A stretch of DNA of 64,000 nt from a virus (IMGVR_UViG_3300011390_000031:834-64833), one strand, 5' to 3'; counted from the first letter of the stretch, positions 24,155 to 32,866 are shown. Made by a program: numbers and translations. The notes: generated by a model not told the origin, from the sequence alone.

Positions 24155-24543
24155 CGCAGCAGATTCCGTATGACGAGATGCGGCGACTGTGCGGACTGCC
24201 TGACATTGAGCACCTAGAACTGATGGCCGTCATTCGAAAGTGTGGACTGAACCAGGCGATCAGCTTCATGCAGCTGACCGGCGCTTTCCAGCAGCAGGAG
24301 GACGGGCGAATTCAGTGGACGCCCGATCCGTCGCCTTGGTGGGTTCCGGTCGATGAGCCGTCAATCGAATCAACCCAGTGGACGTATGGCCGGCGTACCG
24401 GGATCGCAGGCGGTTTCCTTGGCGGGCGTGAACCTGAGGTTGCCACTGCGCTACCGGAGCCGTCGACTAGTCCGCCGATGTGGGCGAACAATCCAACCAA
24501 GACACGCCGGAACGCATTCGGGCCAACGAGAAGGGTGAAGTAA
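24151..24543 (+). CDS. Hypothetical protein with C-terminal PSTSPPMWA motif
   Basis: ATGA coupled. Confidence 0.6.
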   Translation: MTQQIPYDEMRRLCGLPDIEHLELMAVIRKCGLNQAISFMQLTGAFQQQEDGRIQWTPDPSPWWVPVDEPSIESTQWTYGRRTGIAGGFLGGREPEVATALPEPSTSPPMWANNPTKTRRNAFGPTRRVK

Positions 24544-25343
24544 TGACCGCAGTTGCTTACAGCGAACCGAAGTTCAAGTCGATCGCCGACGCCAATACTG
24601 TTCTCCGAGGACAGGTCGGATCCGGCCTCCATGGCGTGACGACCGGGAATGATGACCGCGACGAGATGGGTGTGTGCATCGAACCTCCCGAATGTGTCGT
24701 CGGCGTCAGCAAGTTCGAGCAGTACCAGTTCCGCACCCAGCCTGAAGGTGTCCGTTCCGGCGCAGGCGACCTGGACCTGGTCATCTATTCGCTACGCAAG
24801 TGGGCGCGACTGGCTGAGGCCGGGAATCCCACGGTGCTGCTGTTGATGTACATCCCGCCGGAGGAGCTCGTACTGAACACCTACGTCGGCGAGGACCTGC
24901 AGGCGCACCCTGAGCGGTTCGTCTCACGACAGTCAGCGCTTCGGTTTGCAGGCTACCTGAAGTCACAGCGTGAACAGATGCTCGGACTTCGCGGCAGGAA
25001 GCACACGAACCGACCAGAGCTAGTGGACGTGTACGGATTTGACACGAAGTTCGCGTATCACATGGTGAGGCTTGGGATTCAGGGCGTGCAACTCCTGACC
25101 GAAGGGCGGATCACGTTGCCGATGCCATCGGACGACCGTCGATGGTTGAAGGAATTGCGCGAAGGGAAGCACACAAAGTTCGAAGCCCTGGACCGTGCTG
25201 CCGACCTGGAATCTCAGCTGATGCAACTCTCGCGGACCGCCGACTACCCGAAGCAGCCGGATCGCCAGCGGATTGATTCCTGGCTCGTGTCGACCTACCA
25301 GCAGTGGTGGGCAGAGCATGGCGCCCTCTCCTTTTTCAACTGA
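24543..25343 (+). CDS. RlaP-type Pol-beta nucleotidyltransferase
   Basis: QVGSGLHG...DDRDEMG...DLVIYSLRKWARLAEAGNPTVL...FDTKFAYHMVRL. Confidence 0.85.
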   Translation: MTAVAYSEPKFKSIADANTVLRGQVGSGLHGVTTGNDDRDEMGVCIEPPECVVGVSKFEQYQFRTQPEGVRSGAGDLDLVIYSLRKWARLAEAGNPTVLLLMYIPPEELVLNTYVGEDLQAHPERFVSRQSALRFAGYLKSQREQMLGLRGRKHTNRPELVDVYGFDTKFAYHMVRLGIQGVQLLTEGRITLPMPSDDRRWLKELREGKHTKFEALDRAADLESQLMQLSRTADYPKQPDRQRIDSWLVSTYQQWWAEHGALSFFN

Positions 25344-25367
25344 CGTTCTTATCTTGAAGGGAATTTC

Positions 25368-26555
25368 ATGACACCGACGAAGCACGGCAAGAATCTGCTG
25401 AACTGGGCGTCGCAGATCGACGACAACACGCTGGTCCAGGCAGAAGAGACGGCGATGATGCCGTTCATTTTCCCCCACGTCGCGTTGATGCCCGACGCTC
25501 ACAGCGGTAAAGGATCCGCGGTGGGGACCGTGATCCCGACTCGTGACGCGGTGATCCCGGCCGCGGTCGGTGTGGATATCGGTTGCGGGATGATCGCAGT
25601 GCGAACGCAGTTCACGAAGGCCGATGTGGACGGCAACGATCGGACACTGGGGGAGTTGCGGGAGATTGTCGAAGCATCGATCCCGTTGTCGCCAGGCAAT
25701 TACAACCTGACGGAAGCGCTCGGGAAGTGGTACGCCCAGCCGAAGATCGAGGAACTGGAAGCGCGCGCTGAGAAGGACAATGTCGACCTGTCTCACTCTC
25801 CGAAGTGGCGCGAGCAGCTCGGATCCCTAGGCGGAGGTAACCACTTCATCGAGCTGTGCCTCGACGAAACAGGCAGGGTGTGGCTGTTTCTGCACTCCGG
25901 CTCGCGCGGGGTGGGCAACAAGATCGCCCAGAAGCACATTAAGGTAGCGCAGCAGTTGTGCAAGACGTGGCATATCGATCTACCGAATCGAGACCTCGCA
26001 TACCTTCCGCAGGGCGTGCCCGAGTTCTGGGTGTACATCAGGGAATTGCGGTGGGCTCAGCGGTTCGCGTACCTGAATCGCGCGGAGATGATGGACCGCT
26101 TCGCCCACGTCTTCGGCGAGTGGATTGGTACGAGCGTGCAGGAATCGGAGCGCATCAACTGCCACCACAACTACACCGAGCAGGAAGAGCACTACGGGGA
26201 GAAGGTGTGGCTGACCCGCAAGGGTGCCGTGAATGCACACGAGGGCGTGAAGGCCGTCATTCCGGGATCGATGGGAACTCGCTCGTATGTGGTGAGCGGT
26301 AAAGGGAATCGATCGGGCCTCTGCTCTGCGCCGCACGGGGCGGGCCGCAGGTTCTCTCGGACGGAAGCCCGGAAGCGGTTCACCGAGGCGGATCTCGAAG
26401 CGCGTATGGAGGGCATCGAGTATCGCCATGGCGCTGAGTGGATCGACGAGATCCCGGACGCGTACAAGGACATCGACGTGGTGATGGAAGACGCGAAGGA
26501 TTTGGTCGAGGTGCTGCACGAGTTGCGTCAGATATTGAACGTGAAAGGTACCTGA
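25368..26555 (+). CDS. rtcB: RtcB RNA ligase
   Basis: MPDAHSGKG, VGVDIGCG, GSLGGGNHF, LHSGSRG, CHHNY, RKGA, PGSMG, HGAGR, YKDI motifs. Confidence 0.97.
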   Translation: MTPTKHGKNLLNWASQIDDNTLVQAEETAMMPFIFPHVALMPDAHSGKGSAVGTVIPTRDAVIPAAVGVDIGCGMIAVRTQFTKADVDGNDRTLGELREIVEASIPLSPGNYNLTEALGKWYAQPKIEELEARAEKDNVDLSHSPKWREQLGSLGGGNHFIELCLDETGRVWLFLHSGSRGVGNKIAQKHIKVAQQLCKTWHIDLPNRDLAYLPQGVPEFWVYIRELRWAQRFAYLNRAEMMDRFAHVFGEWIGTSVQESERINCHHNYTEQEEHYGEKVWLTRKGAVNAHEGVKAVIPGSMGTRSYVVSGKGNRSGLCSAPHGAGRRFSRTEARKRFTEADLEARMEGIEYRHGAEWIDEIPDAYKDIDVVMEDAKDLVEVLHELRQILNVKGT

Positions 26556-26577
26556 GCAGTCACCTTCACCTGATCCT

Positions 26578-26614
26578 CGTCATCCCGCCTCGGGCCAGTC
26601 AAGGCGGGATGACG
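26578..26614. terminator. Hairpin between convergent genes (bidirectional terminator candidate)
   Basis: 13-bp perfect stem CGTCATCCCGCCT/AGGCGGGATGACG. Confidence 0.65.
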
Positions 26615-26624
26615 GGCCAACCCT

Positions 26625-31366: not shown

Positions 31367-31401
31367 GGGTGTGTCGCCACATCGACTGACAGAGGAGTCG
31401 C

Positions 31402-31794
31402 GTGAGCATTGCCGAGACCATCGCGCTTGCACTTGTCGCCCACCTTGTCGGTGACTATGTCATCCAATCGCATTGGATGGCAACGGAGAAGACGAAGCGC
31501 TGGTGGCCTGCGATCGTCCACGCTGTCACCTACGGTCTTCCGTTCCTGCTGTTGACGCAGTCGTTCTGGGCATTGCTTGTGATCGTCGGAACTCACGCCG
31601 TGATCGATCGCTACCGGCTGGCTCGACATCTGGTGTGGCTGAAGAACCAACTCGGCCCGAAGGCCTCGCGCCCGGGGCACACCGCAACGGGCTATCCCGA
31701 CGATGCGCCGGCATGGCTGAGCTTCTGGCTGCTGATCATCTTCGACAACGCTCTGCATATGGGCATCAACGTCGCCGCCATCGTGTGGCTGTGA
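31402..31794 (+). CDS. DUF3307-family membrane protein
   Basis: LVAHLVGDYVIQSHWMA...H...Y...THAVID...DNALH. Confidence 0.8.
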   Translation: MSIAETIALALVAHLVGDYVIQSHWMATEKTKRWWPAIVHAVTYGLPFLLLTQSFWALLVIVGTHAVIDRYRLARHLVWLKNQLGPKASRPGHTATGYPDDAPAWLSFWLLIIFDNALHMGINVAAIVWL

Positions 31795-31803
31795 GGGGTC
31801 GAG

Positions 31804-32016
31804 ATGAGTGACCAACCGAGTCGGCCACTGGCGGTTCTAATGCTAGTGCTCATAGTGCCGCTTACGTGGGCCATTACGAAGTGGACTGTCGACATCGCCC
31901 TCGTGACATTGGCGTTGGTGTTCTTCATGGCATGTGCTTACGTTGCCAACTATGCCGTTGCGGCATTCACTCGGACGGGACGGTGCAGCGATGAGCGACA
32001 AGACACCTACCGATGA
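31804..32016 (+). CDS. Small membrane protein
   Basis: Two hydrophobic segments. Confidence 0.45.
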   Translation: MSDQPSRPLAVLMLVLIVPLTWAITKWTVDIALVTLALVFFMACAYVANYAVAAFTRTGRCSDERQDTYR

Positions 32017-32389
32017 GCAGTTGGCTCAGTGGCTCTATGACGCCGAGTATGACTGGAGTGCTGAGTATTACGACTACGAGGCTGAGATGCCTCCCATGCC
32101 TAGCGATACATTCCCGCACTACTACAGCGATGATTACCATCCCACTCTGGCTGCGATCTTCCGTGAGCTGATCGAGTCCCGCGCAAAGAGCGCCGAAGTA
32201 AAGCCGTCGGACGCCGATCTGTTGCGGGCCCAGAAAGACGTACTCGACGCTGAAGTGCATCGAAGGCAGGTCTATCGCATCTGGGGAGATCAACACAGCC
32301 GTCTGGCTATTGAGACCAAGAAACAGGCCGAAGAGCGGCTGAACCTTGCGCAGGGCAAACTCGTACGACTTCACGAGGTCGACGCTTGA
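31991..32389 (+). CDS. Hypothetical protein
   Basis: Acidic N-terminus, coiled-coil C-terminus. Confidence 0.55.
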   Translation: MSDKTPTDEQLAQWLYDAEYDWSAEYYDYEAEMPPMPSDTFPHYYSDDYHPTLAAIFRELIESRAKSAEVKPSDADLLRAQKDVLDAEVHRRQVYRIWGDQHSRLAIETKKQAEERLNLAQGKLVRLHEVDA

Positions 32390-32470
32390 CCGCCGTCCTT
32401 GATTTCATCGAGGCCGTCCGAATCGCGTGGGCACTGATCGAGGCATGGATCATCTGAGACTGATGGGGGC

Positions 32471-32866
32471 GTGTCGATGAAGCTGTTCGTAGATGACGAG
32501 CGTCCCGCACCTGAGGGTTGGGTACTCGCCAAGACCAGCAACGAGGCGCTCACTGTCCTCGCCCTCGCATATCGGGATGACGTACCACCCGAAGCGATCT
32601 CACTCGATCATGATCTATCCACGGTCATGTACGAGGACGACACCACTCGTCCGGTCATGCTGTGGCTGTGCGAGATGGACTGGTGGCCAACTGAGCTGTA
32701 CGTCCACACTGCGAACCCGTACGGCGAGGAGTGGCTCGTAGGTATGGCTCGACGGTATGCGCCGGCCGGAACGCTCAAGGGCTACGGCTGCAACTTCTGG
32801 GGCACATGCAAGTCCGACTCGATCGAGCGGCATTGGGTCCAAGGCAACAGTCATCGGGTGACCTGA
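32471..32866 (+). CDS. Cyclic-phosphate-processing receiver-domain protein (cREC-like)
   Basis: KLFVDDERPAPEGW...ISLDHDL...YVHTANP motif set. Confidence 0.8.
   Translation: MSMKLFVDDERPAPEGWVLAKTSNEALTVLALAYRDDVPPEAISLDHDLSTVMYEDDTTRPVMLWLCEMDWWPTELYVHTANPYGEEWLVGMARRYAPAGTLKGYGCNFWGTCKSDSIERHWVQGNSHRVT

What the first reader, a model, noticed from the sequence alone, without database searches (positions are those of the whole stretch)
24543..32866. Integrated RNA-conflict island: repair enzymes, HEPN, modified tRNAs, structured RNAs and a cyclic-phosphate receiver
Within about 8 kb lie an RlaP-type NTase, RtcB, a HEPN-like gene, tRNA-fMet and tRNA-Arg with altered loops, two ORF-free highly structured segments abutting the tRNAs, and a cREC-type protein. 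Each part relates to RNA ends or tRNA. Their co-location suggests one system protecting or replacing translation RNAs, with the structured RNAs as possible decoys, scaffolds or substrates. The linkage is my inference. This is my best candidate for an undescribed system.
Basis: inference. Interest (0 to 1): 0.8.

Follow-up and report, generated by a model that had tools for sequence, protein, structure and literature searches.

The report
Phage RNA-repair genes, odd tRNAs, nuclease
A Rhodococcus prophage packs a known RNA-mending kit (RtcB, RlaP, cREC), a variant start-tRNA, a tRNA look-alike and an unnamed HEPN-like nuclease gene into 8 kb, but comparison with relatives shows separately swappable modules, not one new machine.

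Summary
Most of the listed parts are real. RlaP, RtcB and cREC match their Pfam families. A 274-aa reverse-strand gene is HEPN-like: an invariant Rx4H motif, HEPN structures as the best fold matches, and a predicted dimer with both invariant motifs at the interface. The tRNA-Met is an initiator type with U38 in place of A38. Two items differ from the description. The "tRNA-Arg" belongs to a small Rhodococcus-phage family of tRNA look-alikes, in which leader, acceptor and T arms are conserved and the anticodon arm is scrambled. The second "structured" segment folds no better than shuffled sequence, though it holds a 128-nt element 97.7% identical to phage REQ2.

RtcB-RlaP-cREC is a published predicted phage RNA-repair kit, and loop-variant phage tRNAs are a published idea. 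Among 75 viral loci with RtcB (±8 kb), RlaP is near in 1, cREC in 0, the HEPN-like gene in 0 and tRNAs in 14. Only close relatives, such as R. qingshengii prophages, keep the layout, and they swap the cassettes. The nuclease family otherwise sits in bacterial defence islands, so it is probably prophage defence cargo.

One lead remains: a second phage lineage also places this nuclease next to an initiator-type tRNA. The scan has noted RNA-repair genes beside tRNAs or tRNA mimics before on other DNA.

The parts
24543..25343 (+). RlaP-family Pol-beta nucleotidyltransferase (266 aa)
   Evidence: PF10127 E 1.8e-39 and phrog_388 E 2e-65. The ATG at 24543 overlaps the upstream stop. It is 97.6% identical in the R. 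qingshengii prophage L148.
25368..26555 (+). RtcB RNA ligase (395 aa)
   Evidence: PF01139 E 7e-119, full-length match to the model; phrog_1075.
26578..26614 (.). Perfect 13-bp hairpin between the convergent rtcB and HEPN-like genes; probably a two-way terminator
   Evidence: Inverted repeat I1, 100% complementary.
26625..27449 (-). HEPN-like putative RNase of an unnamed family (274 aa)
   Evidence: 28 homologues, none with a Pfam family. Invariant NLRAALDH (R75-x4-H80) and D166-K167-H168-R169. AF2 model pLDDT 86. Best solved-structure matches are HEPN proteins (4nqf_B Z 8.5, 5yep_B 8.0, 8xdj_A 7.8). Predicted homodimer scores 0.69 against a best control of 0.46, with both motifs at the interface.
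27557..28051 (+). DUF6221 protein, function unknown
   Evidence: PF19730 E 4e-27. Follows RtcB in relatives L018, L062 and L091. Its fold model was uninformative.
28039..28716 (+). phrog_908 protein, probably an HTH/MerR-like DNA binder
   Evidence: phrog_908 E 2e-47. Atlas neighbours are named HTH or MerR regulators; this is a lead only.
28767..29405 (-). Reverse-strand single-pass membrane protein (212 aa) in a variable cargo slot
   Evidence: Good coding statistics and a transmembrane helix. No tblastn hit in the phage collection. Four metagenomic relatives give no cover over 28755-29388 and resume at 29404. L148 holds other genes at this place.
29547..29738 (+). Small phrog_7834 gene (63 aa), first part of the tRNA-fMet cassette
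   Evidence: phrog_7834 E 9e-18; 100% identical in L148.
29739..29995 (+). ORF-free hairpin-rich leader upstream of tRNA-fMet
   Evidence: MFE -109.9 kcal/mol, z -3.55; 14-bp stem at 29881-29938. No Rfam family. The block 29404-30069 is 98.9% identical to L148, against 93.6-94.8% for the flanking genes.
29996..30069 (+). Initiator-type tRNA-Met with loop CUCAUAU (U38); no encoded CCA
   Evidence: ARAGORN and Rfam, 59 bits. U38 is kept in L148 and L149. The other 11 phage tRNA-Met genes in my fetched loci have A38. The window copy has an A51.C63 mismatch in the T stem that L148 lacks.
30091..30399 (+). phrog_19300 gene (102 aa), function unknown
   Evidence: phrog_19300 E 3e-46. Homologues in Gordonia phages lie among structural and lysis genes.
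30407..30557 (+). Conserved 75-nt leader plus tRNA-like RNA (30482-30557) with an aberrant anticodon arm
   Evidence: Eight family members found. Pairwise identity is 88-90% in the leader core, 83-88% in the T arm plus 3' acceptor, and 29-40% in the anticodon arm. The acceptor stem is 98% paired and the T stem 100% paired, with two compensatory pairs.
30644..30770 (+). 128-nt element 97.7% identical to an unannotated stretch of Rhodococcus phage REQ2
   Evidence: In REQ2 it lies between a tRNA-like gene and two tRNA-Ser genes. Fold z -1.55, not significant.
30792..32389 (+). Four small genes with no RNA link: 50 aa; phrog_18398; DUF3307 membrane protein; 151 aa
   Evidence: One metagenomic relative joins 30079 directly to 31174, skipping 1094 nt.
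32471..32866 (+). cREC (cyclic-phosphate processing receiver) domain protein (131 aa)
   Evidence: PF20274 E 1e-21, model positions 1-87 of 88. L148 has a 58%-identical copy at the same relative place.

Best explanation
This is the accessory end of the early gene arm of a temperate Rhodococcus phage. IMG/VR classes the 68.8-kb record as a provirus, and the region lies just upstream of the HNH and terminase genes. It is a mosaic of separately exchangeable cassettes that share a theme because they answer the same pressure: host or rival nucleases that cut tRNA and other RNAs.

1. RlaP-RtcB, with cREC 6 kb downstream, is the already predicted phage RNA-repair kit. From published work on the families: metal-independent RNases leave 2',3'-cyclic phosphate and 5'-OH ends; RlaP adds back one or two lost nucleotides; RtcB seals such ends; cREC is predicted to process cyclic phosphates.
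2. A cassette at 29404-30079 supplies an initiator tRNA with U38. By inference, this tRNA is less sensitive to a nuclease that recognises the anticodon loop.
3. A tRNA look-alike, with its acceptor/T half and 5' leader conserved and its anticodon arm free to vary, is not a decoder. It most likely acts through enzymes that recognise the top half of a tRNA. This is inferred and the function is unknown.
4. Two reverse-strand cargo genes are probably expressed from the prophage. One is a dimeric HEPN-like RNase from a family that lives in bacterial defence islands. It most likely serves as the prophage's weapon against other phages (inferred).
5. The remaining genes are unrelated filler.
For: - Family matches for the three enzymes. 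Published RtcB/RlaP/cREC linkage and RlaP biochemistry. Published idea that phage tRNAs with loop changes escape tRNases.
- Mosaicism. Of 75 RtcB loci, RlaP is near in 1, cREC in 0, the HEPN-like gene in 0 and tRNAs in 14. Phages carrying only one or two of the parts.
- L018 and L062 keep RtcB-DUF6221-phrog908-tRNA but lack RlaP and the reverse genes, and they hold a different tRNA in the slot (Ser or Cys).
- Close relatives L148 and L149 keep RlaP, RtcB, the HEPN-like gene and tRNA-fMet at 92-99% identity. They swap the 28767-29405 cargo, lack the tRNA-like and 128-nt parts, and carry a cREC only 58% identical.
- Metagenomic contigs show the same cassette borders, at 29404 and at 30079/31174.
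- HEPN-like gene: opposite strand, its own hairpin terminator and an AT-richer divergent upstream region. Homologues lie beside Wadjet, PIN, P63C, ApeA-like, Mrr and NACHT genes or integrases.
- tRNA-like family statistics.
Against: - Within this phage cluster the RlaP-RtcB-nuclease-...-tRNA-fMet order is conserved.
- The nuclease gene ends 70 nt from rtcB.
- A second phage lineage (L012, L014, L015) also puts this nuclease family next to an initiator-type tRNA.
- Some functional coupling therefore cannot be excluded.
- No expression or biochemical data exist for any part. The HEPN assignment rests on a motif, a middling fold score and a predicted dimer.
Confidence: 0.62

Rival explanations
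1. Self-immune weapon. The prophage-expressed HEPN-like RNase cuts a translation RNA, possibly the host initiator tRNA, when the cell is infected. The same prophage carries its own escape kit for induction: a U38 initiator tRNA that is not cut, and RtcB/RlaP/cREC that reseal the damage. The nuclease, the tRNA and the repair genes would then be one functional unit.
For: - HEPN RNases leave the ends that RtcB seals (established for both families).
- The nuclease gene is convergent on rtcB, 70 nt away, and they share a hairpin.
- The block is kept at 92-98% identity in L148, L149 and four metagenomes.
- In the unrelated phage lineage L012/L014/L015 the homologue is again reverse-oriented, and the nearest tRNA is an initiator-type tRNA-Met 260-1030 nt away.
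- U38 is stable across the cluster.
Against: - Only two independent phage lineages show the tRNA link.
- The tRNA-Met genes of the second lineage have the normal CUCAUAA loop.
- None of 75 RtcB loci carries the nuclease.
- Bacterial homologues have neither RtcB nor a tRNA nearby. The one tRNA-Met beside a homologue in L144 is a host elongator at the integration site.
- Outgroup phages keep RtcB without the nuclease.
Confidence: 0.15
2. All parts, including both structured segments and the tRNA-like RNA as decoys or scaffolds bound by RtcB, RlaP and cREC, form one undescribed integrated RNA-protection system.
For: - All parts lie within 8.3 kb.
- The leader 29739-29995 is unusually stable and more conserved than the neighbouring genes.
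- The tRNA-like family keeps its acceptor/T half under apparent constraint.
- Earlier scan notes report tRNA mimics inside repair cassettes of other phages (unchecked).
Against: - The tRNA-like RNA and the 128-nt element are absent from the closest relatives that keep the enzymes.
- They are present in REQ2, which has neither RtcB nor cREC.
- In other phages the tRNA-like RNA follows DUF6221 or HTH genes, not repair genes.
- Segment 30558-30791 is not unusually stable.
- About half the genes in the span have no RNA link.
Confidence: 0.08
3. Nothing beyond a repair operon. The odd tRNA-fMet and the tRNA-like gene are decaying pseudogenes, the hairpins are terminators, and the reverse genes are neutral hitch-hikers.
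For: - The window's tRNA-fMet has a T-stem mismatch (A51.C63) that L148 lacks.
- The tRNA-like gene cannot decode.
- The 128-nt element and segment 2 fold no better than shuffles.
Against: - U38 and all initiator hallmarks are kept across the cluster.
- In the tRNA-like family the leader and acceptor/T arm stay 83-90% identical while the anticodon arm falls to 29-40%, with compensatory pairs. Uniform decay would not give this pattern.
- The nuclease family has invariant motifs across 21 sequences.
Confidence: 0.12

Closest known systems
Phage and bacterial RtcB-RlaP(-cREC) RNA-repair gene sets (Iyer et al. 2021, Viruses, PMC7824862; RlaP biochemistry, bioRxiv 10.64898/2025.12.29.696909)
   Same: The same three Pfam families, with RlaP directly upstream of RtcB. 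The predicted role is repair of RNAs cut by host nucleases. tRNA genes are often nearby (14 of 75 RtcB loci here, three of them with long tRNA arrays ending about 100 nt before rtcB).
   Different: cREC lies 6 kb from the ligase, with unrelated genes between. No RtcA, archease, Pnkp or CCA-adding enzyme was seen in the stretch. A reverse-strand nuclease gene is wedged directly behind rtcB.
Phage tRNAs with anticodon-loop changes proposed to evade VapC, PrrC and colicin-type tRNases (van den Berg et al. 2023, eLife, PMC10264068); VapC cleavage of initiator tRNA in enterobacteria (Winther and Gerdes 2011, cited there)
   Same: A phage-encoded copy of a host tRNA with a substitution in the anticodon loop (A38 to U), stable across the phage cluster.
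   Different: The tRNA is an initiator, which that paper says phages generally avoid encoding where the initiator is the target. The host is Rhodococcus, for which no initiator-cutting tRNase was examined here. The effect of U38 is untested.
HEPN-domain RNases of toxin-antitoxin and abortive-infection systems (HEPN-MNT such as SO_3166, PDB 5yep; LsoA/RnlA; Csm6)
   Same: Helical core with its best structural matches to HEPN proteins; invariant Rx4H; predicted homodimer with the conserved residues facing each other; location in defence islands and prophages.
   Different: No match to any Pfam, NCBIfam, PADLOC or PHROG model. It has a second invariant motif (DKHR) and a beta-sheet insert of about 70 residues. 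No adjacent MNT or other antitoxin gene is present in the phage. Whether the Rx4H sits in the helix equivalent to the canonical one was not verified.
tRNA-like RNAs that mimic the top half of tRNA (bacterial YrlA Y RNAs next to rsr and rtcB; tRNA-like stable RNAs in phage tRNA clusters)
   Same: Conserved acceptor, D and T arms without a working anticodon; located in a phage tRNA slot; in this window within 5 kb of RtcB.
   Different: No match to Rfam YrlA or any other family at E up to 1. It has the normal tRNA strand order rather than a Ro-binding stem. No Ro gene is present. Other family members occur in phages without RtcB.

Membership tests
RtcB RNA ligase (PF01139) | Full-length match to the family model above the curated cut-off | tested here: met
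   398 bits against a cut-off of 27, model positions 1-426 of 426.
RtcB RNA ligase (PF01139) | Metal-binding and guanylylated-histidine residues intact | not tested
   Residues were not inspected individually.
RlaP nucleotidyltransferase (PF10127) | Match to the family model above the cut-off, next to an RNA ligase gene | tested here: met
   136 bits against a cut-off of 23, model positions 15-248 of 249. rtcB starts 25 nt downstream.
cREC (PF20274) | Match to the cREC_REC model above the cut-off | tested here: met
   77.8 bits against a cut-off of 27, model positions 1-87 of 88; confirmed by a six-frame search of the genome.
cREC (PF20274) | Operonic linkage to an RNA ligase, as described for the family | tested here: inconclusive
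   Same strand, but 5.9 kb and about 12 genes away from rtcB. The same relative place is occupied in L148 by a 58%-identical copy.
HEPN superfamily | Conserved Rx4-6H motif | tested here: met
   R75-AALD-H80 is invariant in 21 aligned homologues. A second stretch, RLVNLDKH, fits Rx6H in the window protein.
HEPN superfamily | Helical-bundle HEPN fold | tested here: inconclusive
   Ten of the top 24 solved-structure matches are HEPN proteins (4nqf_B: Z 8.5, rmsd 3.0, 117 residues aligned). Generic helical bundles score Z 7-8 as well, and Foldseek against the PDB found nothing.
HEPN superfamily | Dimer that brings the catalytic motifs together | tested here: inconclusive
   Prediction only: score 0.69 against a best control of 0.46. 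That mark was reached by 21 of 30 proteins solved as pairs of one chain and by 0 of 23 solved as single chains. Runs agree in at least 90% of contacts; pLDDT is at least 81. D79/H80 touch K167/H168 of the other copy.
HEPN superfamily | Significant match to a curated HEPN family profile | tested here: not met
   No Pfam, NCBIfam, PADLOC or PHROG hit for the protein or for its 20 homologues. No PDB sequence hit with the profile.
Bacterial initiator tRNA | CAU anticodon, three G-C pairs closing the anticodon stem, 1-72 mismatch, A11:U24 | tested here: met
   Read from the sequence: A1.C72; CUGGG/CCCAG; D stem GAGC/GCUC.
Bacterial initiator tRNA | Canonical loop CUCAUAA | tested here: not met
   The loop is CUCAUAU in the window, L148 and L149.
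Elongator tRNA-Arg(ACG) | Seven-nt anticodon loop with U33, on a five-bp stem | tested here: not met
   The loop is ACUACGAG (8 nt). There are 26 nt between the D and T stems instead of 22-23. ARAGORN gives no isotype.
Frameshift-suppressor (four-base anticodon) tRNA | An expanded loop that is maintained among homologues | tested here: not met
   The homologues have anticodon regions of differing lengths and unrelated sequence, 29-40% identical.

The most novel reading that the evidence does not exclude
The reverse-strand HEPN-like RNase is a prophage weapon that cuts a tRNA, possibly the host initiator, in infected cells. The same prophage carries its own antidotes: an uncuttable U38 initiator tRNA, the RtcB/RlaP/cREC repair enzymes, and perhaps the tRNA look-alike as a decoy. 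This would be a nuclease-plus-resistant-tRNA pairing that has not been described.
Probability: 0.12. Interest if true: 0.8.

Novelty: new variant of a known kind. Interest (0 to 1): 0.45.

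Why it matters
As it stands, this is a good example of how phages gather RNA-repair genes and spare tRNAs in one swappable region. That pattern is already known in outline.

Two pieces deserve follow-up.

First, the 274-aa nuclease belongs to an unnamed family: 28 homologues, no Pfam model, found in defence islands of Rhodococcus and Mycobacterium and in two phage lineages. It is a candidate new anti-phage effector. Its placement beside rtcB and near initiator tRNAs gives a directly testable idea of its target.

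Second, the tRNA look-alikes have a conserved leader and acceptor/T half and a free-running anticodon arm. They are a small, apparently undescribed RNA family in Rhodococcus phages.

Tried and rejected
- **RNA families.** Rfam, at gathering scores and at E up to 1, found only the two tRNAs and nothing for either structured segment, YrlA included.
- **Profile libraries.** PADLOC, NCBIfam and PHROGs gave nothing for the nuclease.
- **Nuclease fold and sequence.** Foldseek against the PDB gave nothing for the nuclease model, and a profile search of PDB sequences gave nothing.
- **Phage collection.** tblastn of both reverse-strand proteins against 50,697 phage records found no hit.
- **Fold stability.** Segment 30558-30791 scored z -1.2 and the 128-nt element z -1.55, neither significant.
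- **Four-base decoding.** I dropped this reading of tRNA #2 once its homologues showed unrelated anticodon arms.
- **Promoters and terminators.** The consensus scan found no more sites than in shuffled sequence.
- **DUF6221.** The model had pLDDT 66 and a best Z of 5.0, which is uninformative, so it could not be tested as an RtcB helper.
- **L144.** The tRNA-Met beside the nuclease homologue there is a host elongator at the prophage integration site, so it gives no support for the initiator link.
- **Expression.** No RNA holder is listed among the public runs.
- **Metagenomic contigs.** None covers 28755-29388.
- **Wider scans.** The genome-wide and family-wide pattern scans found the tRNA-like leader in only 1 of about 185,000 species genomes (exact match) and in 2 of 401 genomes of the family.

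Full report
**Setting.** The window is 64 kb of a 68,758-bp record that IMG/VR classes as a complete provirus. Genes run almost entirely on the plus strand. The finding lies at the end of the early arm, upstream of an HNH endonuclease gene at 34259-35365 and the packaging genes. The host is almost certainly Rhodococcus. Prophages in R. qingshengii CP054207 and in a second genome match 24121-28054 at 94.8% nucleotide identity. Other elements of the region recur in Rhodococcus phages REQ2 and Whack and in Rhodococcus sp. IEGM 1409.

**What is there.**
- RlaP, 24543-25343 (PF10127, E 1.8e-39).
- RtcB, 25368-26555 (PF01139, E 7e-119).
- cREC, 32471-32866 (PF20274, E 1e-21). All three are clear matches.
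- Between RtcB and cREC lie two reverse-strand genes, two RNA genes and about eight further genes. The further genes include DUF6221, a phrog_908 protein that looks HTH/MerR-like (lead only), phrog_7834, phrog_19300, phrog_18398 and a DUF3307 membrane protein.
- What a plus-strand-only reading would take for ORF-free stretches at 26556-27517 and 28717-29546 are in fact reverse-strand genes.

**The HEPN-like gene (26625-27449, minus strand).**
- It is a real gene with 28 homologues, all unnamed and without Pfam families. The nearest outside its own 90%-identity cluster is 52% identical, in R. jostii.
- Twenty-one aligned sequences share invariant NLRAALDH (R75-x4-H80) and D166-K167-H168-R169.
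- The AF2 model is confident (pLDDT 86). Foldseek found no solved relative.
- An exhaustive structural comparison put HEPN proteins at ranks 1, 2, 4, 7, 8, 10, 11, 13, 14 and 24. The best was 4nqf_B: Z 8.5, rmsd 3.0 over 117 residues. Generic helical bundles score similarly, so this is suggestive only.
- A predicted homodimer passed its controls: 0.69 against a best control of 0.46. That mark was reached by 21 of 30 proteins solved as pairs of one chain and by 0 of 23 solved as single chains. Runs agree in at least 90% of contacts, and pLDDT is at least 81. The interface is made of exactly the two invariant stretches, with D79/H80 of one copy touching K167/H168 of the other. This is the arrangement expected for a HEPN-type composite site. 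It is a model, not a measurement.
- I call the protein HEPN-like. I do not file it in any described HEPN family, because no curated profile matches it.

**Context of the nuclease family.**
- In Mycolicibacterium brumae it overlaps a P63C-domain gene and lies beside PIN, Wadjet and helicase genes.
- In R. jostii it lies near PIN_12 and type IV CRISPR genes.
- Elsewhere it lies beside an integrase at a prophage end, an Mrr/trypsin/NACHT-like cluster, an ImmA-type regulator, or an ApeA-like gene on a conjugative element.
- In the window it has its own perfect 13-bp hairpin, shared with rtcB, and an AT-richer divergent upstream region.
- This is the signature of prophage-borne defence cargo.

**The tRNAs.**
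- tRNA-Met (29996-30069) has every initiator hallmark, but its loop is CUCAUAU.
- U38 is kept in L148 and L149. Those copies have a perfect T stem, whereas the window copy has A51.C63.
- The other 11 phage tRNA-Met genes in my fetched loci have A38.
- The second gene (30482-30557) is not a tRNA-Arg. Pattern searches found seven more relatives: REQ2, Whack, two IMG/VR contigs, two copies in Rhodococcus sp. IEGM 1409, and one further genome.
- All eight share a 5' leader ending in CAACTGAATAGG; four of them share about 75 nt of leader. All have good acceptor and T arms.
- Their anticodon regions differ in length and sequence. Examples: a 5-nt loop in Whack, an 8-nt loop here, and a 24-nt region in REQ2.
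- Pairwise identity is 88-90% in the leader core, 83-88% in the T arm plus 3' acceptor, and 29-40% in the anticodon arm.
- The acceptor stem is 98% paired and the T stem 100% paired, with two pairs changed on both sides. Seven sequences are too few for a firm covariation test.
- In other phages this RNA follows DUF6221 and phrog_908-type genes. The outgroups L018 and L062 hold an ordinary tRNA-Ser or tRNA-Cys in that slot.

**The structured segments.**
- 29739-29995 is unusually stable (z -3.55) and matches no RNA family.
- Together with the small gene before it and the tRNA after it (29404-30069), it differs from L148 at 7 of 666 positions. The flanking genes are only 93.6-94.8% identical.
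- Metagenomic relatives resume similarity exactly at 29404, and one joins 30079 to 31174.
- It is therefore part of a discrete tRNA-fMet cassette and is most simply that tRNA's leader. Constraint and recent exchange cannot be told apart.
- 30558-30791 is not unusually stable. It contains a 128-nt stretch that is 97.7% identical to REQ2, where it lies between the tRNA-like gene and two tRNA-Ser genes. Its role is unknown.

**Is it one system?**
- Across 75 IMG/VR loci holding an RtcB 47-86% identical to this one, with 8-kb flanks, RlaP is present in 1, cREC in 0, the nuclease in 0, DUF6221 in 3, phrog_908 in 14 and tRNAs in 14. Three of those are long tRNA arrays ending about 100 nt before rtcB.
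- In sampled named phages: Crater has cREC only; RayTheFireFly has RlaP only; phiGD17-1, Polyyuki and Ramen have RtcB only; REQ2 has neither RtcB nor cREC.
- Yvonnetastic has all three enzymes, spread over 42 kb.
- The full layout is seen only in close kin (L148, L149 and four metagenomes). Even there the cargo slots, the tRNA-like RNA, the 128-nt element and the cREC allele are exchanged.
- The RtcB-RlaP-cREC linkage is in print, as is the idea that loop-variant phage tRNAs resist host tRNases.

**A lead that remains.**
- The three related viral contigs L012, L014 and L015 are about 70% identical to each other and unrelated to this phage.
- They carry a homologue of the nuclease, again opposite to all neighbouring genes. 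The nearest tRNA, 260-1030 nt away, is an initiator-type tRNA-Met.
- That makes two independent phage lineages. It is too few to conclude anything, but enough to make [quoted passage not shown] a testable idea.
- Against it: those tRNAs have the normal loop. No bacterial homologue has an initiator tRNA nearby.

**Verdict.** The parts are mostly real. The unifying theme is real, but it is explained by known phage biology plus modular exchange. A single new integrated system is not supported. The unnamed HEPN-like family and the tRNA look-alike family are the novel residue.

Noticed in passing
window 30407-30557; L001 2368-2496; L093 1665-1782; L094 6107-6225; L096 5673-5792; L097 2328-2446; L098 2265-2382; L099 about 1455-1600: A small family of tRNA look-alikes in Rhodococcus phages and prophages. 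The leader (CAACTGAATAGG) and the acceptor and T arms are conserved; the anticodon arm is scrambled. ARAGORN misses or mislabels most of them.
   Followed up: partly
window 30644-30770 and L001 (REQ2) 2501-2628: A 128-nt stretch 97.7% identical between two otherwise unrelated phages. It is closed by GGTGGAG/CTCCACC. In REQ2 it is wedged between a tRNA-like gene and two tRNA-Ser genes.
   Followed up: partly
window 28767-29405 (minus strand): A second reverse-strand cargo slot. Here it holds a 212-aa single-pass membrane protein. In L148 the same place holds a 107-aa gene plus a second DUF6221 copy. Four metagenomic relatives give no cover of it.
   Followed up: partly
L003 6958-8825 (Mycolicibacterium brumae): The nuclease homologue overlaps by 4 nt an upstream P63C-domain gene inside a Wadjet/PIN/helicase defence island. 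This may be a two-gene system.
   Followed up: no
window 32407-32457; L096 5596-5646; L094 7032-7081: A 51-nt intergenic stretch just upstream of the cREC gene is 78-80% identical to a stretch close behind the tRNA-like gene in two other viral contigs. Relative to those contigs, the window has about 1.85 kb inserted between the two.
   Followed up: no
L018 4720-4806; L062 11503-11576; window 29996-30557: The position after the DUF6221 and phrog_908 genes is a recurrent tRNA slot. In different relatives it holds tRNA-Ser(CGA), tRNA-Cys(GCA), tRNA-fMet or the tRNA look-alike.
   Followed up: partly
L059, L060, L071 (IMG/VR RtcB loci): tRNA arrays of 19-34 genes end about 100 nt upstream of rtcB in three phage lineages, one of them the Bongo-type mycobacteriophages.
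   Followed up: no
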